From a virus (taxonomy: Duplodnaviria > Heunggongvirae > Uroviricota > Caudoviricetes), in the IMG/VR virus record IMGVR_UViG_2706794699_000012: 48,572 nt of DNA. One strand, written 5' to 3'. This document shows, one piece after another, positions 1-47,020 of this stretch (within the stretch, counting starts at the first letter, position 1; every line of letters starts with the position of its first letter). Below the pieces are notes generated by a model. The model was not told the origin of the DNA. It did no database searches and saw only the letters and a list, made by a program, of their open reading frames with translations. The translations under genes and the position numbers were made by a program.

Positions 1-212
1 CACAACATCCGAGGACAGCATCGTCCGCTGGCCCACAGAAGTCCGGAAAGTCATGGAAGGTCGTTGTTGGGAGGAGGTACAAATTCTCTCATGCAAAAAA
101 TACGTAAAATCGATAATAGCTGGAAATAATTCAATACATGCACTCTCGAAAGTGCATCAGCCAACCGCAGAACGTTATTGCATACAACGTTTCTGCGGCA
201 TAATCCCAATGA

Positions 213-833
213 TTACTCCCTGACAGGGTTCGTAGGCCACTCAATATCAGGTGCAGTTGACGTATCAACACGGTTCAGCAATACCCGATACTTTTTCCAT
301 GCTTCCAGCAACGAGATTTCTTCCTCCGTTGCAATTTCCAGATCTGCAGCATCCTGAAGCGGCGCAATATGCTCACTGGCTACCTGCATCAGGTTGTTTT
401 TTGTTTCTTCCGCCTCCCGGATCCGGAACAGTTTTTCTGCTTCCGTATCCTTCACCCAGGCTGTGCCGTTCCACTTCTGAAACNNNNNNNNNNNNNNNNN
501 NNNNNNNNNNNNNNNNNNNNNNNNNNNNNNNNNNNNNNNNNNNNNNNNNNNNNNNNNNNNNNNNNNNNNNNNNNNNNNNNNNNNNNNNNNNNNNNNNNNN
601 NNNNNNNNNNNNNNNNNNNNNNNNNNNNNNNNNNNNNNNNNNNNNNNNNNNNNNNNNNNNNNNNNNNNNNNNNNNNNNNNNNNNNNNNNNNNNNNNNNNN
701 NNNNNNNNNNNNNNNNNNNNNNNNNNNNNNNNNNNNNNNNNNNNNNNNNNNNNNNNNNNNNNNNNNNNNNNNNNNNNNNNNNNNNNNNNNNNNNTTTTAT
801 GGTCCGTGGTTGTTCACTCATTCTGAATGCCAT
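213..833 (-). CDS. tfa: tail fibre assembly protein (Tfa); interior N-masked
   Basis: C-terminal translation (...[29 protein letters not shown]) is typical of lambda/Rac Tfa; start overlaps stf stop by 1 nt; 484-794 is N. Confidence 0.75.
484..794. other. N-masked block (311 nt) inside tfa
   Basis: Run of n characters. Confidence 1.
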
Positions 834-3793
834 TATGCAAGCCTCACAATATAGTTAAATGCGATGTTTTTGACGGTGTTTTCCGCGTTACCAGCAGCGT
901 TAACGGTGATGGTGTGTCCATGTGAACCAATCGCAACGGAGTGCGTATGAGCACCAATACCGACAGTATGCGCGTGTGCACCTGCAGATGCTGCTGTGCC
1001 GGACAGTGAATGGCTATGATTACCATCTATACTGGTATTCGCTAACCACCCCGTAGACATACCTACTGAGCCTTGTACACCCCAGGTATTTTGACCTGAG
1101 CTTGTATAACCATATTGATAAGTATCTTTAAAAACACTGGGGTTAAATCGACGGCCATCTCTATGGCTGTGATTACCAGCTGCATTCGTGCTGCCACTTA
1201 AACTATGGGTATGCGCACCAGTGTTATTCGTGGATTTAGTGCCGTAATCAAACGACGATGTGGTTTTCGTCCCCAAATCCGTACTGGATGCGCTGGCGCT
1301 GTGGGTATGCGATTTAATGCCGTCCTGTTCCTGAGACAATACGGCCCGACCACTGGCAGGTTTGCCCTTAATCGTCCAGCCACGCATATCAGGGATCACG
1401 CCTGACGGATAAGCCGCTGCAAGTTTCGGGTATGCAGATTTGTCAAAAGCCTGCCCCTGCATCAGGGCATAGCCAGACGGAACGGTATCTGATGGCCACG
1501 GGATTGGTGCGCCAGGCGGATAAAACTGCTCTGATGGCGTATAGAGTGAATAAACTGTACCGTCCGTTAACCCTTCCGGCTTATTAGCAGAATATGCTGG
1601 TGACGTATGAATCGTCACGCTGGCATTACTGGTATAATCCCATTGAATATTTACACCAGTCGCATAATTTCCGATTGCAACGTAAATATCGTAAGTATCA
1701 CCAGATGTATTAACCCAGGCAAAATTTGTAAACCCTGTCAATGTGCGCTGCCATAAAGCACCAGTAATCCCCTTCGGATTACCATTACCTGCACGTAAAA
1801 CAAGTTCAGATATACCTGCCTGTTGAGGTGACCCCACGTTAAATCCAGCGCCACCAATCAACGTAATTGAAACAACAGAACTCGCCTGTGGCATGGTTAC
1901 CGTTGCTAATTTGAACCAACCAGCACCACCGCTGAATGACATTGTTGTTGAGTTAAGCGTACCAATATCTTTCGGCGTCAGTGTTATATCCGCTGAAAGC
2001 GCCTTACCATTCACCTTACGGGCAGAAGGTACCCGACCATTCGCATTGTCATTAGCTGCTTTCACTGCTTTCGGTGTCGCAGCAAGCGTTTCAGATGTGC
2101 TGTTGGTTGCACTACTGAGCTGGACAATTCCTTTTTGTGCTGTCGTAGCGTCCTGTGCGGTGTATTTCCCGTTAGCCAGGTCATACGCGGCCTTAACGGC
2201 TTTTGGCGTTGCCGCCTGTGACTCGGAAGTGCTGTTAGTCGCACTGCTGAGCTGAACTATCCCTTTCTGTGCTGTCGTTGCATCCTGTGCGGTGTATTTC
2301 CCGTTAGCCAGGTCATACGCGGCCTTAACGGCTTTTGGCGTTGCCGCCTGTGACTCGGAAGTGCTGTTGGTCGCACTGCTGAGCTGTACTATCCCCTTTT
2401 TCGTCGTGCTCGCATCCTCAAGCGCCACGGCGGATGCAATATCCTCTGCCCGTTTTGCTGCTGTCTCGGCGCGCGTTGCCGCGGATTCCGCCGTACTTTT
2501 GCTCTGTGCTGCCGCTGCCGCACTGCCAGCAGCCTCTGTCGCCTTCGTGGATGCCGTCGTGGCGCTGCCCCTCGCTGCTGACGCCTGTCTGGTCGCCTCA
2601 TCTTTTGAAGCAGACGCAGATGATGCCGATGACGCCGCCGAACTGGCGGACGATGCGGCAGCCGTTTTTGAGGATTCTGCGCTGGTTTCCGACGCTTTCG
2701 CGTTCGTTTCGGATGTCTTCGCTGCGGAAGCAGACCTCGCTGCTGCGCTGGCCTGTTCAGTGGCTTCGCCAGCCTTCGTTGTGGCTGTTGAAGCGGATGA
2801 TGCGGCGCTTTCTGCCGATTTTCCGGCGGCGGTGGCACTGACTGCTGCCTCCTCTGCCTTAATGGACGCCTCACGGGCCGATGATGCAGCTGCTGTCTCA
2901 GAGTCTGCCGCAGCTGAGGCGCTCTGTTCCGCTGCCGTTTCAGAAGACTTAGCATTCGTCTCGGACGTTTTTGCCGCCTTCACGGAATTTCCTGCCGCCG
3001 TTGCCGAGGAGGCTGCACTGCTGGCGCTTGTGGAGGCGTTCGTTTCTGATGATTTTGCCGCCTCTTTGGAGGCCGCCGCATCTCTGGCTGAAGTGGCGGC
3101 TTCTGACGCTTTCGTTGTCGCAGTGGATGCAGAAGTGGCTGCTGATTTTTGTGACGCTGCAGCATTCGTTTCTGACGTTTTCGCCGCACCGGCACTGGTG
3201 GCCGCCGCGCTTTTTGAGGACTCTGCAGCGGCAGCACTTTTTGATGCTTCAGTGGCCTTTGTTGATGCCGTTCCTGCGCTGGAAGACGCCTCCTGAGCCG
3301 AAGTCGCGGCCTGTCCGGCTGACGTGCTGGCTGCACGCGCTGAGCCTGCAGCATCAGTCGCATGGGTTGCCGCCTCACGGGCAGATGTGCCGGCATCACT
3401 GGCTGACTTCTTCGCGGCTGCCGTGTTCTGTGCCACCGCGGACGCGTTACGCGCCACCTCTTCCACCATCAGTTCAAAACGGCGCAGAGCCTCCGGACGG
3501 GCATCATCCTCCGTCATGGCACCGAGAAAATCATTCAGCGTACCGGGTCGGGAATCTTCATACACAGTGATGGTCCCGGCATGTGACGGCGGGAATCCTT
3601 CCACCAACAGAATAACGCTGTACTGACCGTACTCAACGTCCATGCTGTAACGCCCGGCTTCATCCGGATTTTCTGAGGCCAGCGTGTTCACCACCACCGT
3701 GGTGCTGTTACGTTTTGCTTTCAGCTGGATTGTGCAGTTCTGTACCGGTTTTCCTGTGCCGTCTTTCAGTACACCTGAAATCTTTACTGCCAT
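833..3793 (-). CDS. stf: side tail fibre protein (Stf)
   Basis: N-terminus [26 protein letters not shown] and C-terminus ...[31 protein letters not shown] match lambda Stf as recalled; ATG at 3793 (track GTG at 3799); long Ala/Ser-rich central region. Confidence 0.88.
2040..2420 (-). repeat. tandem 132-bp repeat (about 2.9 copies) inside stf, encoding a 44-aa fibre repeat
   Basis: The string gtgctgtt recurs at 2097, 2229 and 2361 (period 132); the protein shows [44 protein letters not shown] three times. Confidence 0.85.
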
Positions 3794-3802
3794 ATTCACC
3801 CC

Positions 3803-3831
3803 ACAAAAAAGCCCGCCTGAACCGGCGGGCT
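3803..3831 (-). terminator. rho-independent terminator downstream of lom
   Basis: Stem agcccgcc (3810-3817) / ggcgggct (3824-3831), loop tgaacc, followed on the minus strand by a U-run (plus A-run 3804-3810). Confidence 0.7.
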
Positions 3832-3857
3832 GTCATAACACTGTGTTACCTGGCTAA

Positions 3858-4527: not shown

Positions 4528-7500
4528 TCAACGAATACTGATGCCGGAAGCCGCTTTTTTGGTCACAATCACCGTACAGTCGGTGATATTGCCTGCCCCC
4601 TGATTGCCTTTCTGGAAAATCTTAAACTCCAGAGTGACGCTACCACCACCACTAGGCATATCAATAACTGCACTGTAACTACCGGGAATGGCACCTTTAG
4701 TTTCTCTGGATGCGATTAATACGCCGTTTTTGCGAACTTCAAAACCATAACCCGTGTATCGCGTGCCTCCCGGGTTATTTCCGCTCCCCGGATCGTCATA
4801 CGCTATACCGTTAAAAATAATGGGCGGAATAATAATCTGGCGGTCAAAGTTATGATCATCGCTGATGGTGACTGTAACCGTACCGTCTGGTGTTTCCGTG
4901 TTACCCCACGTACCGACTTTTTTCGGGAAGGCTTTTGATACAGCTTTAACGAAATCCCCTCTGACCTGGGTCGCCTCCAGCATGCCCTTAATCGTACAGT
5001 TCTGGTTAATCGTGACATTGTTGAGCGTTCCTGAGTTCGCATTCACACTACCACTGATATCCGCATTTTTAGCGGTCAGCTTTCCGTCTGATGTCAGGGA
5101 AAATACCGGAGGACTGCCACCGCTGGTAATGGCGGGGGCTGTCAGGCGCTTCAGGAACACGTCGTTCATGAATATCTGGTTGCCCTGCGCCACAAACATC
5201 GGCGTTTCATTCCCGTTTGCCGGGTCAATAAACGCGATACGATTGGCGGCAACCAGAAACTGGCTCAGCTTGCCTTCCTCCGTGTCCTCCATGCTGAGGC
5301 CAATACCCGCGACATAATGTTTGCCGTCTTTGGTCTGCTCAATTTTGACGCCCCACATCGCATTCCATTTATCGTTAGCGTCCTTCCACTCTTTCGAAAA
5401 CTCATCCAGTCTGCTGGCGTTATCCTCCGTCAGATCAACTTTTTCCAGCAGCTCTTTACCGAGATGGGATTCGGTTATCTTGCCTTTGAAAAAATCCAGG
5501 TAACCTTCCGCATCATCGCTCGCCCGACCGACGGCCTCCACGAATGCCGATTTGCCAACGGTGTTCACACTGCGGATATAAAAGTAATAATCATGGCCCG
5601 GTTTGATATTGATACTGGCGGCTATCCAGTACAGCCCCGCGCCAAGGTAGCGGGCTGTGGTTTCAACCTGCCTGATATCGGTAATCCGCGTTTCCGAGAA
5701 CCAGAACTCAAACTGTACCGTCGGATCATAAACCGCAAGATGCGGCGTGGCAGTTATCTGAAAATAGCCCGGCGTCAGCTCAATCCGCGACGGTGCTACC
5801 GGTGCGGCAATCCTGAACGATACCGACGCCGGATCGCCCTGCTGTCCCCAGGCATTTACCGCCCGGACTGTCAGCGTGTACCGTCCCAGCGCCAGTTGCG
5901 TGAAGCGGTATGTGGTTTCCGTCGTCCGGGCCGTGCTGACCAGCCGCTCACTGNNNNNNNNNNNNNNNNNNNNNNNNNNNNNNNNNNNNNNNNNNNNNNN
6001 NNNNNNNNNNNNNNNNNNNNNNNNNNNNNNNNNNNNNNNNNNNNNNNNNNNNNNNNNNNNNNNNNNNNNNNNNNNNNNNNNNNNNNNNNNNNNNNNNNNN
6101 NNNNNNNNNNNNNNNNNNNNNNNNNNNNNNNNNNNNNNNNNNNNNNNNNNNNNNNNNNNNNNNNNNNNNNNNNNNNNNNNNNNNNNNNNNNNNNNNNNNN
6201 NNNNNNNNNNNNNNNNNNNNNNNNNNNNNNNNNNNNNNNNNNNNNNNNNNNNNNNNNNNNNNNNNNNNNNNNNNNNNNNNNNNNNNNNNNNNNNNNNNNN
6301 NNNNNNNNNNNNNNNNNNNNNNNNNGCCGTCAGGAACACGGCTCACTTTCACCTTCACGCCGTCGGTGACGGACTGAACCTCCACGCTGACCGGATTGCC
6401 ACTTCCGTCAACCAGGCTTATCAGCATGGTACCGGAGGATGGCAGCGTGATTTCACGGTCGAGCGTCAGCGTCCGGGTCTGGCTGTTTACCGCCAGCACG
6501 CGCCCGCCGATGCTGATACCCGCATAGTCATCATCACAGATTTCAATGACATCGCCCGGCACATGGCGAAGCCCTTCTGCGCCCACGCTGAAGTCCACGG
6601 TCTGCGTTTCCAGCAGTTCTGTTTTAATCAGCCACAGCCCGGCGCGGTGTGCCTGCCCCCGGCTGGTACAGCCAAAAGCATCCATCTTCGTGACGTTACG
6701 ACCGTAACGGGCAATGGCCTGCGTATCCTCCACAAGCTCTGTCGCCGTCTCCCAGCCGTTATCCGGGTCAATCCAGTTCACCTCAACGGCATTATGGCGG
6801 TCTTTCAGGGCGCTGAAGCTGTAGCGGAACGGCGCGCCATCATCCGGCATCACCACATTACTGCGGTTATAGGTCCACACCTTATCCGACGGTCGGTCCT
6901 GCACGAACGTCAGCGTCTGCCCGTTCCATACCGGCATACAGCGCATCGCCGAGCAGAAATCACTGAGCACATCCCACGCCTTGCGCTGTGTGGTCAGGTA
7001 CGCATTACAGGTGATGCGCGGCTCCGTGCCGCCAAAGCCGTCCGGCACTGACTGGTCGCAGTACTGGCCGATGACATACAGCGCCCATTTGTCCACATCC
7101 GCCGCACCAAGACGTTTCCCCATGCCGTAGCGCGGGTGGGTCAGCATATCCCACAGACACCAGGCCATGTTGTTGCTGTATGCTGGTTTTAACGTTCCGT
7201 CCCAGATACCGCTGTATTGTCGCGTCTGCGGGTTATAGTTCGACGGCACCTGCAGAATGCGCCCGCGAAGATGATAATTACGACTCACCTGCTGGCTGCC
7301 GAACTGCTCCGAGTCCACCTGTACGCCGACCAGTGCAGTGTTCGGGTAGCACTGTTTCACATCGATGATTTCGGTGTATGACGACCAGAGCGTTTTGTTC
7401 TGCAGCTGGTCTGTGGTGCTGTCCGGTGTCATCCTGCGCATCCGGATACTGAACGGGCGCGGAGGCAGGTTATCCACCACCACCGAGACCAGATACTGCG

Positions 7501-7981: not shown

Positions 7982-8041
7982 TCCTCACGCTCCATAAACG
8001 ACAAAACCGCCCGCAGGCGGTTTCTCATAAAACATTTTGCA

Positions 8042-8713
8042 TCAGCGACCAATCACCACAACCTGACCACCATCCCCTTCGTCTGCCGTGCTGATCTCCT
8101 GAGAAACCACACGTGACCCCACGCGCATTTCCCCGTACAGAACAGGCAGAACATTACCCTGGGCAACCATGTTATCCAGTGACGAGAAATACGTGTTCTG
8201 TTTGCCGTTATCTGTACTGGCTGCCGTGGGCGTCCTGGCTTTCGGTGCCAGCATCTGCGCCACACCACCCAGGATCATACTGGCCCCTGCTGCATACATA
8301 CCCGATACAGCCGCGGCCCCCAGCCAGCCCACAGGGTTCCACCATGCCACCGCAATCAGCGCCGCACCCAGCACCGCCTGAAACACACCGCCACTTTTGG
8401 CACCCGCCAGACGCGGAACGATGTGGATCACGGCACCATTTGCCAGCGGTTCATTAAGACGGGCAGATAATTCATTTTCGCCTGCATCACGCCCGGCAAT
8501 GCGCACCTGATACCAGCCGTCGCTCAGTTTCTGACGAAATGCCGGGAGCTGTGTGGCCAGTGCCCGGATGGCTTCGNNNNNNNNNNNNNNNNNNNNNNNN
8601 NNNNNNNNNNNNNNNNNNNNNNNNNNNNNNNNNNNNNNNNNNNNNNNNNNNNNNNNNNNNNNNNNNNNNNNNNNNNNNNNNNNNNNNNNNNNNNNNNNNN
8701 NNNNNNNNNNNNN
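8042..8713 (-). CDS. I: tail assembly protein I; 5' part lies in N block, start coordinate estimated
   Basis: Visible C-terminal part ...GVFQAVLGAALIAVAWWNPVGW...VLPVLYGEMRVGSRVV is lambda-I-like; upstream boundary inside 8577-8970 N run, estimated from lambda I length. Confidence 0.65.
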   Translation of the reverse strand, partial: XXXXXXXXXXXXXXXXXXXXXXXXXXXXXXXXXXXXXXXXXXXXXXEAIRALATQLPAFRQKLSDGWYQVRIAGRDAGENELSARLNEPLANGAVIHIVPRLAGAKSGGVFQAVLGAALIAVAWWNPVGWLGAAAVSGMYAAGASMILGGVAQMLAPKARTPTAASTDNGKQNTYFSSLDNMVAQGNVLPVLYGEMRVGSRVVSQEISTADEGDGGQVVVIGR

Positions 8714-8970
8714 NNNNNNNNNNNNNNNNNNNNNNNNNNNNNNNNNNNNNNNNNNNNNNNNNNNNNNNNNNNNNNNNNNNNNNNNNNNNNNNNNNNNNNN
8801 NNNNNNNNNNNNNNNNNNNNNNNNNNNNNNNNNNNNNNNNNNNNNNNNNNNNNNNNNNNNNNNNNNNNNNNNNNNNNNNNNNNNNNNNNNNNNNNNNNNN
8901 NNNNNNNNNNNNNNNNNNNNNNNNNNNNNNNNNNNNNNNNNNNNNNNNNNNNNNNNNNNNNNNNNNNNNN
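8577..8970. other. N-masked block (394 nt) covering the K/I junction
   Basis: Run of n characters. Confidence 1.
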
Positions 8971-9355
8971 AAGCGTCCCGGAACAGCGTGTAACAGTCCG
9001 TCACCCCGTGCTCAAAGCGCCGCCCGGTGAGATGCGGCACACAGCGGAACTTGTGAATCGCCCCGCGGCAGACCAGCCACCACGACAAATCACTCTGCAC
9101 CTGCAGCCGCCGGTCGGCCTCACTCAGCCAGGGCAGACCACCGGGGTGGCTGTGGACCAGCGCCACAATCTCACCCTGCATCTCTGCCTGCAGCCAGTCC
9201 TCCGGAGCCATCCGGAAATACTCCTCCGGCTCACCGGAAATATTCACGCAGGGAAAATATCTTTCCCCCTCCGGTGTTCTCACCACGAAGCCGCACGACT
9301 CCGCTGGCGCACATCGCCGGGCGTGCGCCAGAATCGCTGATTCTGTCTGTGTCAT
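8756..9355 (-). CDS. K: tail assembly protein K (JAB/MPN + NlpC/P60 type); 3' part lies in N block, end coordinate estimated
   Basis: N-terminus MTQTESAILAHARRCAPAESCGFVV...HSHPGG (JAB-like H-S-H motif) is lambda-K-like; stop hidden in N run, end estimated from lambda K length. Confidence 0.65.
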
Positions 9356-9360
9356 GGGAT

Positions 9361-10059
9361 TTACTGCGAAAGTTTGTTAATGGAAAGGAAGCCGCCAAAG
9401 TTGCCGACGTTATTGCGGAACTTACAACCGCTCAGGCATTTGCTGCATTTATCCTTCGTGATATCGGACGTTGGCTGGTCATATTCATCCGCGACAGCCG
9501 GACCGTGATAACCGCACTCATCACCGCGATAGGTCCAGGTGCAGGTATTAGCAAGCATGATGCGCCCCGGAAAAACAGCGCCGTCCGTTTCCGTCGGCGT
9601 GGACAGTACAAAGGAGGCACTGACCGCGCTCAGTTCGCTGCACTGCTCAATACGCCAGCGGCTGATCACCTCCTGCTCCGGATCGGCGTCACTGTTTCCG
9701 TTGACGAAGTTCACCGCATCCAGAAAACGGGCGTAAACCTTACGCCTGACCACCGTTCCGCCGACCAGACTCTGCAGGTCTTCCGCCATCCCGGTGACCA
9801 TGCCGTGCAGATTAGAGACTTTCAGCGTTGGCCTTGCACTGGCACCTTTGCCGTTCATCTCAAATCCACTCCCCTGAATGGGATAGGCCTGATACTGCCG
9901 ACTCTGCCAGGTGACAGACTCTCCTTTCTCGTTCTGCTCATTGCAGAAAAAGTAGCGATCCCCGCCTACCTCGGTCAGGTCGATTTCCCAGAGCACCACG
10001 CTGGCCGACTGCTCCGCACGAATGCATTCATTCAGCGTTTCCTGTTGTATGTCCTGCAT
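9361..10059 (-). CDS. L: minor tail protein L
   Basis: 232 aa, same length as lambda L; position between K and M; C-terminal Cys cluster (CSKCLSGC). Confidence 0.85.
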   Translation of the reverse strand: MQDIQQETLNECIRAEQSASVVLWEIDLTEVGGDRYFFCNEQNEKGESVTWQSRQYQAYPIQGSGFEMNGKGASARPTLKVSNLHGMVTGMAEDLQSLVGGTVVRRKVYARFLDAVNFVNGNSDADPEQEVISRWRIEQCSELSAVSASFVLSTPTETDGAVFPGRIMLANTCTWTYRGDECGYHGPAVADEYDQPTSDITKDKCSKCLSGCKFRNNVGNFGGFLSINKLSQ

Positions 10060-26396: not shown

Positions 26397-27854
26397 TTAG
26401 GAGCGCCAAAAAAAACCTGAAAACAATATAATAACAGGATAAATTTCAAGGCGACCAAGAATCATAGCTATGCACATTAAATATTTTGCAATGTCATTAA
26501 GCACTCCGAATGACGATGCAGTAGCCCCAAAACCTAATCCCATATTATTAATACATGCAGCCACTGTTGCAAATGATGTAAGAAAATCATATCCCATACC
26601 ATTTAACACCAGTATAAAAAACACCGTGAAGAGAGTATAAAGAAAAAAGAAACTCCATACAGACCTCATTACACGATCTGTAACTATCTTCCCTCCTACA
26701 TTTACACTCAACAACGCTCTGGGATGAGAAAGCTGATTTATCTCGTGTTTGCTTTGTTTGAAAAGTATAAGAAATCGAAGTGACTTAATTCCACCACAGG
26801 TTGAACCTATACATCCCCCAAAGAAACTTGACAACAGCAAAAACACTATCGTGTGCGTGGGCCAGTTTGCATAATCCTGCGTAGCTAAACCATTATCAGT
26901 GAGCATGGAGCTGGCAAGAAAAAACGAATGAATAAAACTTCCATGCAAGTCATACATACCTATATGCCAGACCTGGAAAGAGGTAACAATGATCACCCCT
27001 AAGGCTATTAACAGAAAGAAACGAAGTTCAATATCTCTGATTAAAGGTTTTATCGTTTTTCTGCTAATAACAATATACCAAAGAGTGAAGTTGAAAGCCG
27101 ATAGCAGGGAAAAAGAACCAGCCACCAGCTCAACCAAATAGTTATTAAAATATCCGATACTCTCGCTATGAGTTGAGAAACCACCAAGCGAAACTGTGGA
27201 AATCCCGTGACAAATAGCATCAAACAAAGGCATTCCTGCAAGTCTATAACAGACAATACAAGCAATACCTAATAAAGAATAAGTTATCCACAGTGTCCGT
27301 GACGTATCGGCCAGGCGGGGAGTGAGTTTGTCATCCTTAAATGGCCCCGGCATTTCTGACTGATAAAGCTTTGCACCACCAATACCCAATAATGGCAATA
27401 CTGCAACCGCCAGAACAATAACTCCTAAACCACCTATAAAATTTAACTGTGACCGATAGTACAAATATGCCCGAGGTAATGAACTAACATCATCAATTAC
27501 AGTTGCTCCTGTTGTTGTTATTCCAGAAACCCCTTCAAACAGAGCATCAATGAACGTTAAATTAAGTTCTGAGTCAATCCATAAAGGGAATGCACTAATA
27601 ACAGAAAACAAAATCCAAAACATTACAATTATAATAAACCCATCACGGGTACGTAATTGAATGCCAGATTTCTTAGTTGTATACCACGCTCCGCCACCAA
27701 TGCAAAAAAATATAACGAAAGTTATAAAGAAAACGAACAGGCTTTTTTCTTTATAAAACAATGCTACAACCATTGGTGGCAACATTGAAAGACTATAGAG
27801 CCAAACCAGGAACCCACACATATGAGTAACAACTCTTACATGAGATGTATTCAT
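26397..27854 (-). CDS. trkG: Trk potassium uptake protein TrkG (prophage moron)
   Basis: Multi-pass membrane protein; start MNTSHVRVVTHMCGFLVWLYSL gives 485 aa, matching Rac TrkG as recalled; visibly AT-rich relative to flanking genes. Confidence 0.9.
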   Translation of the reverse strand: MNTSHVRVVTHMCGFLVWLYSLSMLPPMVVALFYKEKSLFVFFITFVIFFCIGGGAWYTTKKSGIQLRTRDGFIIIVMFWILFSVISAFPLWIDSELNLTFIDALFEGVSGITTTGATVIDDVSSLPRAYLYYRSQLNFIGGLGVIVLAVAVLPLLGIGGAKLYQSEMPGPFKDDKLTPRLADTSRTLWITYSLLGIACIVCYRLAGMPLFDAICHGISTVSLGGFSTHSESIGYFNNYLVELVAGSFSLLSAFNFTLWYIVISRKTIKPLIRDIELRFFLLIALGVIIVTSFQVWHIGMYDLHGSFIHSFFLASSMLTDNGLATQDYANWPTHTIVFLLLSSFFGGCIGSTCGGIKSLRFLILFKQSKHEINQLSHPRALLSVNVGGKIVTDRVMRSVWSFFFLYTLFTVFFILVLNGMGYDFLTSFATVAACINNMGLGFGATASSFGVLNDIAKYLMCIAMILGRLEIYPVIILFSGFFWRS

Positions 27855-27991
27855 ATCTAAATATTCTTTCAATTATAACCACCTTGCTGCAATATTATGA
27901 TTATACTGTATAAAATTTAACTCCTCTTAGATCTTACTTCACTGTTCCTTATGAAACAATCATCAAAATGAATCATATTGTAGTTAAGATT

Positions 27992-28456
27992 TTACTTTAA
28001 ACACTGCTCGGTTATGTATTGCTGAGCACCTTCAAGTTGGGCCTGCATCATTACCAGTCGTTCCCGGAGGGTGAAATAATCCCGTTCAGCGGTGTCTGCC
28101 AGTCGGGGGGAGGCTGCATTATCCACGCCGGAGGCGGTGGTGGCTTCACGCACTGACTGACAGACTGCTTTGATGTGCAACCGACGACGACCAGCGGCAA
28201 CATCATCACGCAGAGCATCATTTTCAGCTTTCGCATCAGCTAACTCCTTCGTGTATTTTGCATCGAGCGCAGCAACATCACGCTGACGCATCTGCATGTC
28301 AGTAATTGCCGCGTTCGCCAGCTTCAGTTCTCTGGCATTTTTGTCGCGCTGGGCTTTGTAGGTAATGGCGTTATCACGGTAATGATTAACAGCCCATGAC
28401 AGGCAGACGATGATGCAGATAACCAGAGCGGAGATAATCGCGGTTACTCTGTTCAT
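27992..28456 (-). CDS. rzpR: spanin inner-membrane subunit Rz
   Basis: N-terminal TM helix then coiled coil; start MNRVTAII; follows endolysin. Confidence 0.8.
28051..28236 (-). CDS. rzoR: spanin outer-membrane lipoprotein Rz1, embedded in Rz in another frame
   Basis: 61 aa, lipobox VVGC, proline-rich ([15 protein letters not shown]), nested within Rz. Confidence 0.75.
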
Positions 28457-30391: not shown

Positions 30392-30988
30392 TTTTCCTCA
30401 CATATGTCATATAGTAAAGGATTATATATACCGTTGTTTTGGACGCTCAAACAGCGAATCAGATCAAATAAAACGCACATTTGTTAACATTTACACAAAG
30501 TCTGCGTGGGATATTCTGAAAGAATATCCATAATGTGGAGAGAATCTATTGAAGTGCATGGTGCCGGGTGCCTCCCGGTGAACAAAATGTTCGTGATACC
30601 TGTCGGCGACAGAAAAGGTTAATGGTATCACCCCACCGCACAGGGGGATTCACCATGCAGGAGTTTTCTTAGCAAACTCACTGCGCGCCCGGCAACTCCC
30701 AACCACATAAAATGCGGAGTTTGTGGCATTTATGCATATAACTCGCAGGAATTATCTTAAAAAACTGATGTCGATCCGGATTAAAAAGAAGCAGGTCATC
30801 ATCAGATGACTGGAAAAAAGGAAAACAAAAAATACTCATCATACAGTTTTGATTGCAGGGATGAGCCTGCTATGCACAATATGCAGAATATAAGCAAGAT
30901 AAAAATATGCAGGCATATTATTTCGGATCTTGTTATTAACACAACCTTTTTAATAATCATTTGGCATACAATAAACCAGCCCAAAAAG

Positions 30989-32864: not shown

Positions 32865-33145
32865 TTCTCAATCTCTCGATGGCGCAGCGCAGCAGATGCC
32901 AGTTGTTCAGGCTGACGAATAAAGTATAAATAAACTGGCTATGGTGTAAAGCCCCACATAGCATGAACAAACACTACATATCAAATAGCTGGTACAAGGA
33001 TAGAAATACGACACTTATTATTAAAAACGATTAGATAAATTACATTTTAATGTTATGCAAAAGTTCTTTTTTATCATAACATTTCAATAAAAGCATTACA
33101 GATGCAATCATCCCGTCATCATCAATTATTTAAGGTGGTTAAACA

Positions 33146-33232
33146 TGGAAAATAACAAGTTCGCACATCTCGCTCCTTTTTTATCCGTAATCCTTTTCGC
33201 TTGTTGTTTTATATGGGCATTATTTTTATAAA
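33146..33232 (+). CDS. candidate small hydrophobic peptide (28 aa)
   Basis: ATG at 33146 preceded by AGGTGG at 6-nt spacing; MENNKFAHLAPFLSVILFACCFIWALFL; lies in a very AT-rich spacer. Confidence 0.3.
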
Positions 33233-33677
33233 GTAGCCACATGATAAGTTGCTGGAATCATATTTCCCACTCAAGTCATTAACATTTGATAAGATATATC
33301 TAAAAGGACGCCTTTACATTATTTATGCGTATATAATTTATTTATATACACAGTAAAGGTATCCTGGGAAAATATTTATCGTTAAAAAATACATCATAAA
33401 TAATTAAGCTGAAATTTCAGAACACAACTAATACACACAATAAGGTTCAGTAACAGTAATCTATGTGGACTACATCGAGATTTTTTGATTAAACTTTAAT
33501 AACTTATTCCTAACACACAGAATGCATAAACTAAAAGTAAAACAAATAGTTATACGAAAAACAACCATATTTATTCTATCTTCTCCTCTAATCAACATAT
33601 CAATTATGTGTTTCATAACAGCTTGACATAACCCTCCAAAAGATGCATTTTTAATGCATGTTTTGGAGGAGGTGGTT

Positions 33678-34016
33678 ATGACACACAAGAGAATTCCTAA
33701 AGATTGGGTAATCAAACGCTCAACTCCGTTCTTCACAAAAGAGAACGTACCTTCAGCGTTATTAACACATCATAATACAGCAGCAGGTGTTTTTGGGCAG
33801 TTGTGCGTAATGGAAGGCACTGTAACATATTATGGTTTTACTGATGAGAATGCTACTGAACCGGAGATAAAAGTAGTCATTAATGCTGGCGCTTTTGCAA
33901 CAAGCCCACCACAATACTGGCACCGTGTTGAACTAAGCGATGATGCTCAGTTTAATATTAACTTTTGGGTCGCTCCAGACTTTTCGGGCGAAAAAGTCTA
34001 TAGCACCAAAAAATAG
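33678..34016 (+). CDS. YeaR-like protein (DUF1971 family), plus-strand cargo gene
   Basis: ATG at 33678 preceded by GGAGGAGGTGG; ...KRSTPFFTKE...QLCVMEGTVTYYGFTDE...FNINFWVAPDF resembles E. coli YeaR as recalled; opposite strand to all neighbours. Confidence 0.7.
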   Translation: MTHKRIPKDWVIKRSTPFFTKENVPSALLTHHNTAAGVFGQLCVMEGTVTYYGFTDENATEPEIKVVINAGAFATSPPQYWHRVELSDDAQFNINFWVAPDFSGEKVYSTKK

Positions 34017-34045
34017 ATGATCATATTAAAAATGCTTTAACAGTC

Positions 34046-34082
34046 AGACCCGGCAGGGCTATCCCCGACGGGTCTCATTTTT
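34046..34082 (+). terminator. rho-independent terminator after the YeaR-like gene
   Basis: Stem agacccg (34046-34052) / cgggtct (34069-34075) followed by cattttt. Confidence 0.6.
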
Positions 34083-34636
34083 GTAAATATATTGGTTCTA
34101 CATTGACAGGAGACTTCAACCATAAGAAGTAATCTGAATACTTGAGCAATAAATTTACTTAAGATTAATGAGCGCACCTTGCCGGACAAAGATAAACCAA
34201 GGTAACACCTTTTTTCTAGCCAGTATGTAATCAATCAGAAAGCCGCTCCATAAGAACAACAGCAAGACAATAAATTGCCATTACAGCCGCAATAGCCAGC
34301 GCACATTTGAGAACCAGCACGACAACCCCCTGTATTAGACGCACACCAGTCCTGATAAATATGAGGCTGTCTCGTCAGTGATTCAATACAACTATTGGGT
34401 ATAGTTTCTGTGATTTTATTCTGTAGAAATGGAACACAACAACCAGTCACCACCAGCACTTCCTTAAATGCTCTAAGTCAGAAACAAGCCAACATTTTAG
34501 TCCGCTTTGAGCGATCTGCAGACATTGCTAGCAGCCTTCTGTGTGAATTCTCAGGGAGCAGGTCGGCATAGCATCACGTTGAGGCTCTTACCCTACTTGT
34601 TCACACCAACCCTAACTCCACAGACTGATTCATAAA

Positions 34637-35638
34637 TTAGTAATCTGCGTGTTTCGCACTTTTCAGAAATGCTTTCATATTTTCATTAGGTCGCTCAATT
34701 TCGAAGTTACTTCCATATAACTCTTGTAATTTTGGCCATAACTTACTTAATAACCCTCTCCTGCGATAAAATGGATGTATCCAAACGGTAGATAGGTACG
34801 GAGAATTTGCATTTGAATTGTTTATTGTGACCAGCCCAACTAAACATTGTCGATAACCACTATTATCCATTGATTGTATTTCTTCGACGAATGGATACGC
34901 GATTACATCAGTCCAACCATGATCGGTTGTATCCCATTGCATTCCGTCATGACATTCCTTCGACTGATAGCGGCGTAAAGCTACACACGCGAGCTTTTGC
35001 CAATCTGGAGAATTAATTGTGATCTCTTCATCGTATGACGCGCCTATTGGAGCGGGTATTGGTCTGATTAATCCAGCATGGCATTCATCATAGAACTTCA
35101 TGTTTCCCTCAGAAACGTTGTGTACGTTGGGTTGCTCCATGTGTGCGCCATTCAAAAATAGCTCTGATAGTAGTGTATCTACACTGTAATCTTTATTGAT
35201 TATTGTCGGCTTAGAGTTTTTCTTATTAAGGCCGCGAGTAACGATTTTTTGATCAATGTTAACAACATGGAATAATCCGTCGGGGAGGCTAGCGAACCAC
35301 GATGGGGCATCGGACCAGAATAGCATGCCTTTTGTACTTCTTAAGAGTTTAATTAAGTTAATACAAGCTTCTTCACTAGTCTTGCCGTTGATGCGAAGTA
35401 TGTTAGGACTAAAGTAATATTCATCCATATCAGGGAATGCAGCTTCGCAAAACTCCTGTACATAATTTAGCACCTGGATTCTACAGAGATCATCATAGCT
35501 GGTAATAACTAAGGGGGTATCTTCATTACTATTATGATTATCAATAATGCAATCTATAGCGAGACTTACTGCTTTGCGTATCACTTCAGTTGAATCTAAC
35601 GACTCTAAAAATTTTGTCTTTCGTGTGCGAATATCCAT
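34637..35638 (-). CDS. uncharacterised protein B of an AT-rich two-gene accessory operon (possible GNAT-like C-terminus)
   Basis: 333-aa ORF, 15-nt spacing after gene A; AT-rich; C-terminal ...CLVGLVTI...STVWIHPFYRRRGLLSKLWPKLQELYG loosely resembles an acetyltransferase pyrophosphate-binding loop. Confidence 0.7.
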   Translation of the reverse strand: MDIRTRKTKFLESLDSTEVIRKAVSLAIDCIIDNHNSNEDTPLVITSYDDLCRIQVLNYVQEFCEAAFPDMDEYYFSPNILRINGKTSEEACINLIKLLRSTKGMLFWSDAPSWFASLPDGLFHVVNIDQKIVTRGLNKKNSKPTIINKDYSVDTLLSELFLNGAHMEQPNVHNVSEGNMKFYDECHAGLIRPIPAPIGASYDEEITINSPDWQKLACVALRRYQSKECHDGMQWDTTDHGWTDVIAYPFVEEIQSMDNSGYRQCLVGLVTINNSNANSPYLSTVWIHPFYRRRGLLSKLWPKLQELYGSNFEIERPNENMKAFLKSAKHADY

Positions 35639-35653
35639 GTATGACCTGCGCTA

Positions 35654-36676
35654 TTAAAATTCATGAATGAACGGTTTGTCATCTGGTTGCAAAATGGTGG
35701 TTTTATTCGTTGCTACATTTAAACTGTTGTAGAGCATAATTGCCAGGTTCGATGCATTTTCAATCAGCGTTTCAAGATCCTGGTCTGTAATCACTACGAG
35801 GTTCCCTTCTTTATCCTTTCCACCACGATGCACTAAGTGATTTCGATTGAGGGTTGCCAATTCAATAGCTTCTATCGGACAGTCTTTTTGTACTTTTATA
35901 TCGAATGTAGCTTCATAGCGGTCGATTACCTTTTTAGTGCTATGCCAGCTTGCACTGATCAAGTGTTCCTTGATTGACCTGATTAGCTCTCCCCTAATTT
36001 TCTCGATGGGTTCACCCTTGAAAGGCAACGCAGCAATATCTTTGCTTACTTTAAATTCAGTCTTACCTTTTTCTATACAATTGGCTATGTAGACATCATC
36101 TTTCTCTATAGAATTAATGAATAGCTCAACATAAAGCGTTTCCAAAGCTGTAATAACATTCGTGTAGAGCAAACTAAGCAAGTGGTTTTTTTGCTGTTGT
36201 TCAGTTTTATCTTTTGCAAGTTTTTTTATTTTATCGATATTATCAATGAATTTTAAATACGGATTACCGGAAGACGTTACAGCGTCGTAGATATCATCAT
36301 CGTACCAATCATCTATATTATTTGAGTTTCCAGACCAGTCAAAACATTGTGTTTGTAATTCATCTACTAATTCCTCAATATACTCAGATTTAACATATTG
36401 ACCGAAGATGGATTGTAGTTCTTCGCTCGCATCATACGGCCCGCCATATATGTAAGCATAGCCACCTTCTCTACTTTCATACGGACAAGCATTTGCCGGA
36501 TCTTCAAAGTTTTCAAAGAACCAGTTTTTCATTACTTCGAGTTGATCTTTTTTGCTTATGTATTTTAAAGATTTTAGTGGAACTTTCTTTCCATTAACCT
36601 CGAAAACAATTTTCACGATGTAACGCTCCCTTGTATCAATTGCGCAACTATTATACCACAGCGAAATACAGGGCAT
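35654..36676 (-). CDS. uncharacterised protein A of the AT-rich two-gene accessory operon (R-x4-H, HEPN-like motif)
   Basis: ATG at 36676 preceded by AAGGAGG; alternative GTG at 36616 (AGGGAG upstream); track ORF extends to 36745; C-terminal LNRNHLVHRGG motif at residues 301-306 of the track ORF. Confidence 0.7.
   Translation of the reverse strand: MPCISLWYNSCAIDTRERYIVKIVFEVNGKKVPLKSLKYISKKDQLEVMKNWFFENFEDPANACPYESREGGYAYIYGGPYDASEELQSIFGQYVKSEYIEELVDELQTQCFDWSGNSNNIDDWYDDDIYDAVTSSGNPYLKFIDNIDKIKKLAKDKTEQQQKNHLLSLLYTNVITALETLYVELFINSIEKDDVYIANCIEKGKTEFKVSKDIAALPFKGEPIEKIRGELIRSIKEHLISASWHSTKKVIDRYEATFDIKVQKDCPIEAIELATLNRNHLVHRGGKDKEGNLVVITDQDLETLIENASNLAIMLYNSLNVATNKTTILQPDDKPFIHEF
36650..36658 (-). 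promoter_or_regulatory. extended -10 element TGgTATAAT upstream of the alternative GTG start of gene A
   Basis: Plus-strand attata at 36650-36655 and cca at 36656-58 give minus-strand TGgTATAAT; no good -35. Confidence 0.35.
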
Positions 36677-36814
36677 AACCTGCCTCCTTAAACTAACATA
36701 CCATGAGCCAGCAATGTCCGCTATTGGCACAAAGCGGACAACCACGCTAGCTCTCCCCTGTGCCAGAAAAATGTCAATTTACATATGAACTAATGCTCTT
36801 TGATCTAGTAACGT

Positions 36815-37231
36815 CTATAAATACCGAAGATTTCCTTGATAAAATGCCAGTACACGTTTCATAACTTCACTCTTCCGGCACTCGCGACAGATTATGTTCT
36901 GACGCCTGTCATAGCGGCGTATTTCTCCGTCTGGTAATGACCAGATAAGGTCAGGATCAACCACAACCGTTTTTTTCACCTTTGCCCTGGATAGTTTTTT
37001 GCGGGCGTTTTTCCAATCCTTACGAGCCTGTTCAGACGGGAATAACCCATAGCCAGAGTTGTATACATCGCCACTGGCAACCAACTCTCTGGCAAGAATG
37101 CTCATCAGATATCTTGTCGCACCTGTCTTGGCCTCCAGTTGCCTTAACGTCTCGCGCCCACTCTGGCGTACCAACTCAACAACCTGCTCCTTAATTTTTT
37201 CACGCTCTTCCTGTGTAAAAACTTTTGCCAT
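36815..37231 (-). CDS. hypothetical protein
   Basis: Start MAKVFTQEEREK... preceded by GGAGG; basic C-terminus with Cys pair (CRECRK). Confidence 0.5.
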   Translation of the reverse strand: MAKVFTQEEREKIKEQVVELVRQSGRETLRQLEAKTGATRYLMSILARELVASGDVYNSGYGLFPSEQARKDWKNARKKLSRAKVKKTVVVDPDLIWSLPDGEIRRYDRRQNIICRECRKSEVMKRVLAFYQGNLRYL

Positions 37232-37246
37232 AAGCGCCTCCGGCAA

Positions 37247-46819: not shown

Positions 46820-47020
46820 ATGGAGGTGTTCATGTATAAAATTACCGCCACTATTGAAAAGGAAGGTGGCACTCCTACTAACTGGACAAGATATTCAAAA
46901 TCTAAACTAACGAAATCAGAATGCGAAAAAATGCTCTCAGGTAAAAAAGAAGCAGGCGTTTCCAGAGAGCAGAAAGTAAAACTGATAAATTTTAATTGCG
47001 AGAAACTTCAGTCCTCGTGA
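46820..47020 (+). CDS. ydaC: small protein YdaC-like
   Basis: MEVFMYKITATIEKEGGTPTNW...; GGAGGTG upstream; alternative start at 46832. Confidence 0.5.
   Translation: MEVFMYKITATIEKEGGTPTNWTRYSKSKLTKSECEKMLSGKKEAGVSREQKVKLINFNCEKLQSS

What the first reader, a model, noticed from the sequence alone, without database searches (positions are those of the whole stretch)
34637..36745. AT-rich two-gene operon in the nin-like region with no recognisable family: candidate anti-phage defence / abortive-infection module
Two co-directional genes (A, 35654..36676; B, 34637..35638) sit 15 nt apart in a block that is visibly more AT-rich than the flanking replication and nin genes, at the position where lambdoid phages accumulate accessory genes. 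Neither protein resembles a phage structural, replication or lysis protein that I can name. Gene A carries a C-terminal R-x4-H motif (LNRNHLVHRGG), the signature spacing of HEPN RNase active sites. Gene B has a C-terminal segment loosely like a GNAT fold. Gene A has its own extended -10 (TGgTATAAT, 36650-36658). The combination of foreign composition, an operon, a nuclease-like motif and location inside a prophage is the profile of a defence system.
Basis: partly seen in the sequence, partly recalled or inferred. Interest (0 to 1): 0.85.

Follow-up and report, generated by a model that had tools for sequence, protein, structure and literature searches.

The report
Published HEPN–GNAT phage defence cassette DS-33

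Summary
Both genes are real, co-directional on the minus strand and 15 nt apart. They lie in a 3.9-kb low-GC island (37.6% against 47–53% in the flanks) of a full-length Rac-type E. coli prophage.

Gene A really starts at GTG 36616, giving 320 aa, not at 36676. It combines a HEPN/RES N-terminal domain 1 with a RiboL-PSP-type HEPN domain and has an invariant R258-x4-H263 motif. Gene B (333 aa) has a family-specific N-terminal domain and a C-terminal GNAT fold.

Gene A is 100% identical to DS-33A, and gene B is 332/333 identical to DS-33B, of DefensePredictor (Science 2026, PMC13092281). Cloned in MG1655, DS-33 cut plating of T7, T3, Bas67 and Bas26 by 2–6 logs. ΔHEPN and R258A abolished protection. 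ΔGNAT did not, and if anything protection rose.

My comparative data agree with that result. A-family genes mostly sit alone in prophage and satellite cargo slots, and B-family genes mostly sit alone too. The pair is kept only in E. coli, Serratia and Aeromonas.

One new point: the tested B allele carries L289. The window and all 42 aligned homologues have P289, so B's role is still effectively untested.

Verdict: interpretation supported, system already known, residual interest modest.

The parts
35654..36616 (-). Gene A = DS-33A (WP_014639476.1), 320 aa, GTG start; N-terminal NTD1 domain plus C-terminal HEPN domain
   Evidence: ORF. Start set by homologue N-termini, the PGAP call and the conserved GTG. 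100% identical to DS-33A.
36341..36541 (-). HEPN/RES N-terminal domain 1 (PF18870), residues ~26-92 of A; candidate sensor or regulatory domain
   Evidence: Pfam 22.2 bits, E 1.9e-4, below the gathering score of 27.4. 45/47 family members match at E<=0.01. Invariant W32 F33 P40 P45 G58 G59 P60.
35693..36199 (-). HEPN domain of A, residues ~140-308 (helical bundle)
35828..35845 (-). R258-x4-H263 HEPN catalytic motif (RNHLVH)
   Evidence: Translation. Invariant in 47 sequences. R258A abolishes defence in the published data.
36650..36658 (-). Extended -10 element TGGTATAAT, 34 nt upstream of the GTG start; probable own promoter
   Evidence: TGnTAyAAT is conserved at the same distance in Serratia and Aeromonas. 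The published clone used the predicted native promoter region.
35639..35653 (-). 15-nt A-B spacer
   Evidence: The same 15-nt spacing occurs in the Aeromonas pair and in the published DS-33 coordinates 7884/7900.
34637..35638 (-). Gene B = WP_000354966.1, 333 aa; 332/333 identical to DS-33B; family-specific N-terminal domain plus C-terminal GNAT fold
   Evidence: NCTC10444 annotation.
34640..35071 (-). GNAT-fold domain of B, residues ~190-333
34772..34774 (-). Codon for P289 of B (invariant); the experimentally tested DS-33B allele has L289
   Evidence: P in 42/42 homologues. The P289 allele is on >=1000 contigs and the L289 allele on 31.
32865..36814 (.). Low-GC cargo island between nin gene DUF1367 and replication-region gene DUF977; also holds a DUF1971 gene (33654..34016, +)
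   Evidence: GC 37.6%. The slot downstream of DUF977 holds different cargo in other lambdoid prophages.

Best explanation
This is the prophage-borne defence cassette published as DS-33. Gene A is a self-contained sensor-effector protein. Its C-terminal HEPN domain (R258-x4-H263) is the effector, and from what is known of HEPN proteins it is an RNase. Its N-terminal HEPN/RES NTD1 domain is the likely regulatory or sensing module that keeps the effector off until infection.

Infection by T7-like and some other phages switches the HEPN domain on. Cleavage of cellular and/or phage RNA then blocks phage production, probably at the cost of the infected cell.

Gene B is a GNAT-fold acyltransferase-like protein with a private N-terminal domain. 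It is co-transcribed as an accessory. It is not needed for protection against the phages tested so far and may mildly restrain A.

The cassette has its own promoter and sits in a variable cargo slot of lambdoid prophages.

Shown: identity with DS-33; the published phenotypes; the folds and invariant residues; the distribution. Inferred: RNase activity and its target; the sensing role of NTD1; an abortive outcome; any role for B.
For: - Identity to DS-33A/B.
- Published log10 protection, two replicates. WT: T7 3.78/2.60, T3 3.30/2.40, Bas67 4.0/1.98, Bas26 5.0/5.90. ΔHEPN about 0. R258A <=0.78. ΔGNAT: T7 4.78/4.30, T3 3.30/3.30, Bas67 4.0/3.30, Bas26 5.0/4.90.
- HEPN fold and invariant Rx4H.
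- NTD1 in 45/47 members. The same PF18870 domain defines the standalone aRES NADase defence proteins, which also stop T7 with growth arrest.
- A homologues at 56-74% identity stand alone: beside P2-type portal and terminase genes (L039, L042), next to integrases (L043, L046-L048), and in a nin region (L045).
- The variable slot downstream of DUF977.
- Conserved -10 element and GTG start.
Against: - No biochemical evidence for RNase activity, RNA target or trigger exists in the paper's tables or here.
- The window protein itself scores below Pfam's gathering thresholds for PF18870 and gives no PF18735 hit. Family membership rests on relatives and on structure.
- The A-B pair is retained with identical spacing in three genera at A 87% / B 78% identity. 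That argues B is more than a passenger.
- The ΔGNAT result was obtained with an allele mutated at an invariant residue.
- An abortive outcome was not measured for DS-33 in the tables I read.
Confidence: 0.85

Rival explanations
1. B is an enzymatic restraint on A, a type VII-like arrangement. The GNAT would acetylate A (or A's activator or target) to hold the HEPN RNase in check. It would play the role that MntA plays when it AMPylates HepT. Infection would relieve this restraint.
For: - ΔGNAT gave equal or higher protection in both replicates (T7 +1.0 and +1.7 log; Bas67 0 and +1.3; T3 0 and +0.9).
- The pair is kept at a 15-nt spacing across Escherichia, Serratia and Aeromonas.
- B's best Foldseek hits are protein-lysine acetyltransferases HAT1, ESCO1 and MYST.
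Against: - Most A-family genes have no B next to them, so A must be self-restrained.
- Most B-family genes have no A.
- ΔGNAT cells were viable.
- The Foldseek TM-scores are low (0.2-0.3).
- The ΔGNAT effect is small, and it could be a polar or expression artefact.
- The tested B allele may already be defective (L289).
Confidence: 0.15
2. A and B are two independent single-gene modules that travel together. B has its own function, either defence against phages outside the tested panel or something unrelated to defence.
For: - B homologues occur alone in variable regions and defence islands: next to Mrr_cat and a HEPN_Toprim_N-domain protein (PF18871), with a TerB-N/TerB-C-domain protein and a BrxC/BrxD-domain protein upstream; near a HerA-like ATPase; next to toxin-antitoxin genes.
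- No conserved partner was found.
- ΔGNAT is dispensable for A's phenotype.
- DefensePredictor gave B a log-odds of only 1.08, against 9.45 for A.
Against: The 15-nt spacing, with no separate promoter evident, is preserved over 13-22% protein divergence in three genera and in unrelated contexts. ΔHEPN, which leaves B in place, protected against none of the five phages tested.
Confidence: 0.3
3. The pair is a toxin-antitoxin or addiction module that stabilises the prophage, and the anti-phage effect is incidental.
Against: Neither gene has the canonical partner (an MNT for HEPN, an RHH antitoxin for GNAT). Either single deletion was viable in the published strains. A is usually solitary.
Confidence: 0.04
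4. They are ordinary core nin or replication genes of Rac-like phages.
For: Their position between the replication and nin genes.
Against: - Present in only 209 of 5426 complete E. coli genomes, whereas the neighbouring DUF977 gene matches in 3987.
- Foreign base composition.
- The same cassette occurs in Rac-like and Qin-like backbones and in non-phage islands.
- Published defence phenotype.
Confidence: 0.01

Closest known systems
DS-33 (working name 'GNAT') of DefensePredictor, DeWeirdt et al., Science 2026, PMC13092281
   Same: Protein A is identical (320/320). Protein B is 332/333 identical. Gene order and the 15-nt spacing are the same.
   Different: The window's B has P289, the consensus and majority allele. 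The tested clone had L289. The published source is an ECOR draft contig; here the full Rac-type prophage context is visible.
PD-T4-2 (Vassallo et al. 2022): DUF262 protein plus RiboL-PSP-type HEPN protein
   Same: The HEPN domain falls in the same Pfam family, PF18735. The DS-33 authors report an HHblits hit of A to PD-T4-2_B, probability 96.1 over 55% of A.
   Different: The partner is DUF262, not a GNAT. No A-family member hits a PD-T4-2 model in PADLOC. I did not check whether PD-T4-2B has an NTD1 domain.
aRES (Osterman et al., bioRxiv 10.64898/2026.01.28.702374): standalone NTD1-RES NADase defence proteins
   Same: Same N-terminal domain family, PF18870. Single-protein architecture of N-terminal domain plus C-terminal effector. 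Both defend against T7, and aRES does so with growth arrest.
   Different: The effector is a RES NADase that makes ADPR-1''-phosphate, not a HEPN domain. aRES has no operon partner.
HepT/MntA type VII toxin-antitoxin systems
   Different: The neighbour here is a GNAT fold, not a MNT nucleotidyltransferase. A carries an extra N-terminal domain and tolerates loss of its neighbour.
HepS of Salmonella Gifsy-1 prophage (PDB 9oik)
   Different: Only a distant fold match. The PDB title shows HepS bound to the lambda J tail tip; nothing is known about the trigger of DS-33A.
GNAT toxins (TacT, AtaT, ItaT) that acetylate aminoacyl-tRNA
   Same: GNAT fold encoded on mobile elements (own knowledge of those families; fold).
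   Different: Those toxins are about 170 aa and are paired with RHH antitoxins. B is 333 aa with a private N-terminal domain, has no antitoxin neighbour, and shows no sequence match to them.

Membership tests
DS-33 (DefensePredictor) | Protein sequences WP_014639476.1 and WP_000354965.1 as adjacent co-directional genes | tested here: met
   A is 320/320 identical. B is 332/333 identical (P289 vs L289). The 15-nt spacing is the same.
DS-33 (DefensePredictor) | Protection of E. coli against phages when cloned with the predicted native promoter region | not testable with these tools
   Published for the identical A and near-identical B. Not measured for the window's allele.
HEPN superfamily | R-x4-6-H motif at the start of the last core helix | tested here: met
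   R258 and H263 are invariant in 47 sequences. Translation.
HEPN superfamily | All-alpha HEPN fold | tested here: met
HEPN superfamily | Metal-independent RNase activity | not testable with these tools
   Only genetic evidence is available: R258A abolishes defence.
Pfam PF18735 HEPN_RiboL-PSP | Score at or above the Pfam gathering cut-off | tested here: inconclusive
   The window protein gives no PF18735 hit at E<=1. 26/47 aligned relatives match, best E 7e-11.
Pfam PF18870 HEPN_RES_NTD1 | Score at or above the Pfam gathering cut-off (27.4 bits) | tested here: inconclusive
   The window protein scores 22.2 bits, E 1.9e-4. 45/47 relatives match at E<=0.01.
PD-T4-2 | Match to the PD-T4-2_B model, with a DUF262 partner gene | tested here: not met
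   No PD-T4-2 hit for A, B or any of the 47 + 42 relatives in PADLOC. The partner here is a GNAT fold, not DUF262.
aRES | PF18870 domain plus a RES NADase domain in one standalone protein | tested here: not met
   NTD1 is present, but the C-terminal domain is HEPN, not RES.
GNAT superfamily (gene B) | GNAT alpha/beta fold | tested here: met
GNAT superfamily (gene B) | Acetyl-CoA pyrophosphate-binding motif Q/R-x-x-G-x-G/A, and a Pfam score above the cut-off | tested here: inconclusive
   R292 is invariant, but G295 is not, and the last position is L, K or M. PF00583 scores 19.9 bits against a 20.7 cut-off. 16/42 relatives match.
[quoted passage not shown] | Adjacent MNT nucleotidyltransferase antitoxin | tested here: not met
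   The neighbours are a GNAT-fold gene and a DUF977 gene.

The most novel reading that the evidence does not exclude
The native (P289) form of B is a working acyltransferase that either tunes the HEPN effector by covalent modification or adds a second defence specificity. The published 'GNAT dispensable' result would then reflect a crippled minority allele: L289 at a position invariant in 42/42 homologues, seen on 31 contigs against >=1000 for P289. If so, DS-33 would be the first HEPN defence regulated by acetylation.
Probability: 0.2. Interest if true: 0.55.

Novelty: already known. Interest (0 to 1): 0.27.

Why it matters
The system is already in the literature, so the window adds no new kind of immunity. 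It does place DS-33 in context. The cassette is self-promoted and sits in a variable slot after the DUF977 gene of Rac- and Qin-type prophages. It is carried by about 4% of complete E. coli genomes, including UTI89, S88, IHE3034 and the type strain.

The comparative data explain the published genetics, because the HEPN protein is normally a solitary gene. They also link it, through the shared NTD1 domain, to the aRES NADase family. That link suggests one input domain coupled to interchangeable effectors.

The practical point for experimenters is that the GNAT partner was tested only as a variant mutated at an invariant proline.

Tried and rejected
- PADLOC and NCBIfam gave no meaningful hit for either protein. 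PADLOC over all 89 relatives gave only scattered weak hits.
- A profile search of PDB sequences gave only a spurious eL20 match.
- The sigma-70 scan did not list the -10 element at 36650, because its -35 is poor. Total promoter-like and terminator-like sites were at or below shuffle expectation. No convincing terminator follows B.
- TGNTATAAT frequency is not above chance.
- A search for a conserved partner of B found only heterogeneous neighbours: YunG-like, C92 amidase, HerA-like, Mrr_cat.
- B's N-terminal 170 aa, searched against 1.84 billion representatives, found only 21 clusters. All were B-family proteins or fragments, apart from one LRR protein that I regard as a motif-level chance match. 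The N-domain therefore remains unassigned.
- The afdb50 fold library was unavailable. Foldseek against PDB returned only GNATs with low TM-scores.
- I checked whether the 138-aa gene upstream of the Aeromonas pair is a DUF977 homologue, which would make a three-gene cassette. It is not.
- NTD1-only matches in viral contigs (L053-L072) have C-terminal parts with no Pfam match, so they could not be typed as RES or HEPN.
- No paper other than PMC13092281 mentions these accessions or DS-33.

Full report
**The observation**

The region holds two minus-strand ORFs. B runs 34637..35638 (333 aa). The A ORF ends at 35654, and a 15-nt spacer separates them.

Base composition is clearly foreign. A is 36.1% GC and B is 39.1%. 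The whole island 32865..36814 is 37.6%. The flanking DUF1367, DUF977, DUF1627, dnaC-like and DUF1376 genes are 47-53%, and the window as a whole is 46.1%. Only 1.1% of 2-kb windows are as low.

The window is a full-length Rac-type prophage at ttcA. It carries intR, xisR, ralR/RalA, recET, kilR, sieB, ydaS-V, nin-type genes, lysis genes, trkG, terminase and a P22-type capsid gene.

**Where gene A starts**

That codon has a textbook Shine-Dalgarno (TAAGGAGG, 6 nt upstream). Several lines nevertheless point to GTG 36616:
- Nearly all of about 120 homologues are 310-325 aa and begin MK(I/V)VFxxNGKK at the position of GTG 36616.
- PGAP uses that start.
- In an alignment of the upstream DNA from E. 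coli (two prophage backbones), Serratia grimesii and Aeromonas, the GTG and its GGAG-type ribosome-binding site are conserved.
- In the same alignment the ATG/SD pair is missing in Aeromonas.

Gene A is therefore 35654..36616, 320 aa.

TGGTATAAT at 36650..36658 lies 34 nt upstream of the real start. It is conserved as TGnTAyAAT in all three genera. On frequency alone the motif would not be significant (3 matches against 1.9 expected).

**What the proteins are**

An alignment of 47 A-family sequences has invariant R258, H263 and R264 (RNHLVHR), E159, and W224-H225. It also has a strongly conserved N-terminal WFxxNFEDPxxxxPYxxxEGGYxYIYGGPYDA block.

Scanned one by one, 45/47 members match Pfam HEPN_RES_NTD1 and 26/47 match HEPN_RiboL-PSP. 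The window protein itself stays below Pfam's thresholds.

B's acetyl-CoA motif is only partly canonical. R292 is invariant; G295 is not.

B's N-terminal 170 residues occur only in this small family: 21 clusters among 1.84 billion representatives.

**It is already published**

Table S6 of the DefensePredictor paper (PMC13092281, Science 2026) lists WP_014639476.1 and WP_000354965.1 from an ECOR contig as validated system DS-33, working name 'GNAT'. The window's A is identical. B differs at one residue.

Table S7 gives log10 reduction in plating in MG1655, in two replicates:

| Construct | T7 | T3 | Bas67 | Bas26 | T5 |
|---|---|---|---|---|---|
| WT | 3.78 / 2.60 | 3.30 / 2.40 | 4.0 / 1.98 | 5.0 / 5.90 | 0.77 / 0.08 |
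| ΔHEPN | 0.08 / -0.30 | -0.48 / 0 | 0 / -0.18 | 0.52 / 0.30 | 0.54 / 0.08 |
| R258A | 0.78 / 0.46 | -0.30 / 0.30 | 0.52 / 0 | 0.74 / 0.43 | 0.37 / 0.30 |
| ΔGNAT | 4.78 / 4.30 | 3.30 / 3.30 | 4.0 / 3.30 | 5.0 / 4.90 | 1.73 / 0.55 |

The first screen gave similar numbers.

The paper's main text does not discuss DS-33 individually, and I found no follow-up paper.

**Comparative genomics**

In E. coli, A and B each occur in 209 of 5426 complete genomes. 208 of those are at >=99% identity, and 205 of them carry both genes intact side by side (>=80% of the A+B query). That is one near-clonal cassette, so the linkage within E. coli is not independent evidence. It sits in Rac-like and in Qin-like (dicB, ydfA-D) prophages.

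Outside E. coli the pair recurs in two places:
- In a Serratia grimesii island next to McrBC-like and CbtA/CbeA-like genes, as judged from ORF sequences (L007).
- In Aeromonas, at A 87% / B 78% identity with the same 15-nt spacer. There it lies beside TIR and SIR2-STALD genes or in an integron/IS context.

Everywhere else the genes are apart:
- A homologues at 56-74% identity stand alone beside P2-type portal, terminase and ogr-like genes (L039, L042). From my knowledge of P2 gene order this is the tin/old cargo position.
- Others stand alone between integrase and excisionase-like genes (L043, L046, L047), next to a P4-type integrase (L048), or in a lambdoid nin region (L045).
- More distant A homologues are solitary in metagenomic contigs.
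- B homologues at 91% (Mangrovibacter prophage), 86% (Enterobacter, Rahnella) and 39-62% (Shewanella, Idiomarina, Colwellia and others) have no A nearby and no conserved neighbour.

Thus A is an autonomous defence gene, which matches the ΔGNAT result. B is a facultative companion.

The slot downstream of DUF977 carries QueH, a TetR regulator or an alpha/beta hydrolase in other lambdoid prophages. It is a variable cargo position.

**How it most likely works**

*Shown.* The HEPN gene and R258 are required. B is not, at least for the allele tested. The protein has the HEPN fold and motif. It carries the NTD1 domain.

*Inferred from the HEPN family.* The effector is a metal-independent RNase acting as a dimer.

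*Inferred from aRES.* That family is defined by the same PF18870 domain fused to a RES NADase. It acts as a standalone protein, defends against T7 and causes growth arrest. NTD1 is therefore probably the module that couples infection to effector activation, with HEPN and RES as interchangeable outputs.

The trigger, the RNA target and whether the cell dies are all unknown.

**The one new point**

The tested DS-33B has L289. The window and all 42 aligned homologues have P289, inside the conserved WIHPFYRRxG strand-helix junction of the GNAT core. The P289 allele was seen on at least 1000 contigs and the L289 allele on 31.

The 'GNAT dispensable' result may therefore say little about the native protein. 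The slightly higher protection in ΔGNAT (up to 1.7 log for T7) would fit a restraining role. It is weak evidence, and it could instead reflect changed expression.

**Comparison and verdict**

The system is DS-33 itself. Relative to other known systems:
- It shares the HEPN Pfam family with PD-T4-2B, but not that system's DUF262 partner or its PADLOC models.
- It shares NTD1 with aRES, but not the RES effector.
- It resembles HepT/MntA only in having a HEPN protein with an enzyme neighbour.

Novelty: already known. The reader's interpretation is supported, with a corrected start codon and family assignment. Interest is modest and rests on the untested role of B and on the NTD1 link.

Noticed in passing
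window 36676 (ATG) with TAAGGAGG at ~36683-36690, minus strand: A near-perfect Shine-Dalgarno plus ATG lies in frame 60 nt upstream of the conserved GTG start of gene A. It is upstream of the cassette's own -10 element. Read-through transcripts from the phage early operon could yield a 20-aa N-terminally extended A isoform. The ATG is kept in Serratia but not in Aeromonas.
   Followed up: partly
window 36716-36739, minus strand: Inverted repeat GTCCGCT-N10-AGCGGAC upstream of gene A, conserved in E. coli and Serratia and followed by a TTGCTGGC block conserved in all three genera. It has no T-run, so it is not a typical terminator. Possibly an operator or an RNA element.
   Followed up: no
window 32865-33653 and 33654-34016 (+): The same low-GC island contains a 790-bp stretch of 30.5% GC whose only ORFs of >=40 aa are two short minus-strand ones at its edges (67 aa overlapping 32865-32970; 88 aa from 33470). 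It also contains a DUF1971 gene on the opposite strand. Their relation to DS-33 is unknown.
   Followed up: no
window 36815-37246 and related loci L073-L076: The position just downstream of the DUF977 gene is a variable cargo slot in Rac/Qin-type lambdoid prophages. It holds QueH in an ST131 strain, a TetR regulator plus a hypothetical gene in SF10, an alpha/beta hydrolase in 2011C-4315, and DS-33 here and in a Qin-like prophage.
   Followed up: partly
proteins P0147/P0148 (E. coli, 320 aa): Chimeric ORF in some E. coli. A DnaC-like N-terminus ([13 protein letters not shown]...) is fused to the C-terminal ~200 residues of B. This implies a deletion that removed DUF1627, DUF977, gene A and the 5' part of B.
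   Followed up: no
loci L053-L072 (viral contigs): About 20 prophage or viral proteins carry the NTD1 domain followed by ~150-aa C-terminal parts with no Pfam match. They may be further effector variants of the NTD1 architecture.
   Followed up: partly
window 46838-47016 (-), 30502-30688 (-), 256-454 (-): Rfam hits above gathering score: RalA antitoxin sRNA (225 bits), STnc100 sRNA (86.6 bits) and IS009 RNA (220.9 bits).
   Followed up: no
window 1-1500, 5500-7000, 8000-9500, 26500-28000: Other low-GC patches (33-40% GC) in the same prophage that may be further cargo genes. Not examined.
   Followed up: no
L077-L080 (Aeromonas), 3420-3836: A 138-aa gene with no Pfam hit sits 165 nt upstream of the Aeromonas A-B pair in all four contexts. 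It is not a DUF977 homologue. It might belong to the Aeromonas version of the cassette.
   Followed up: partly
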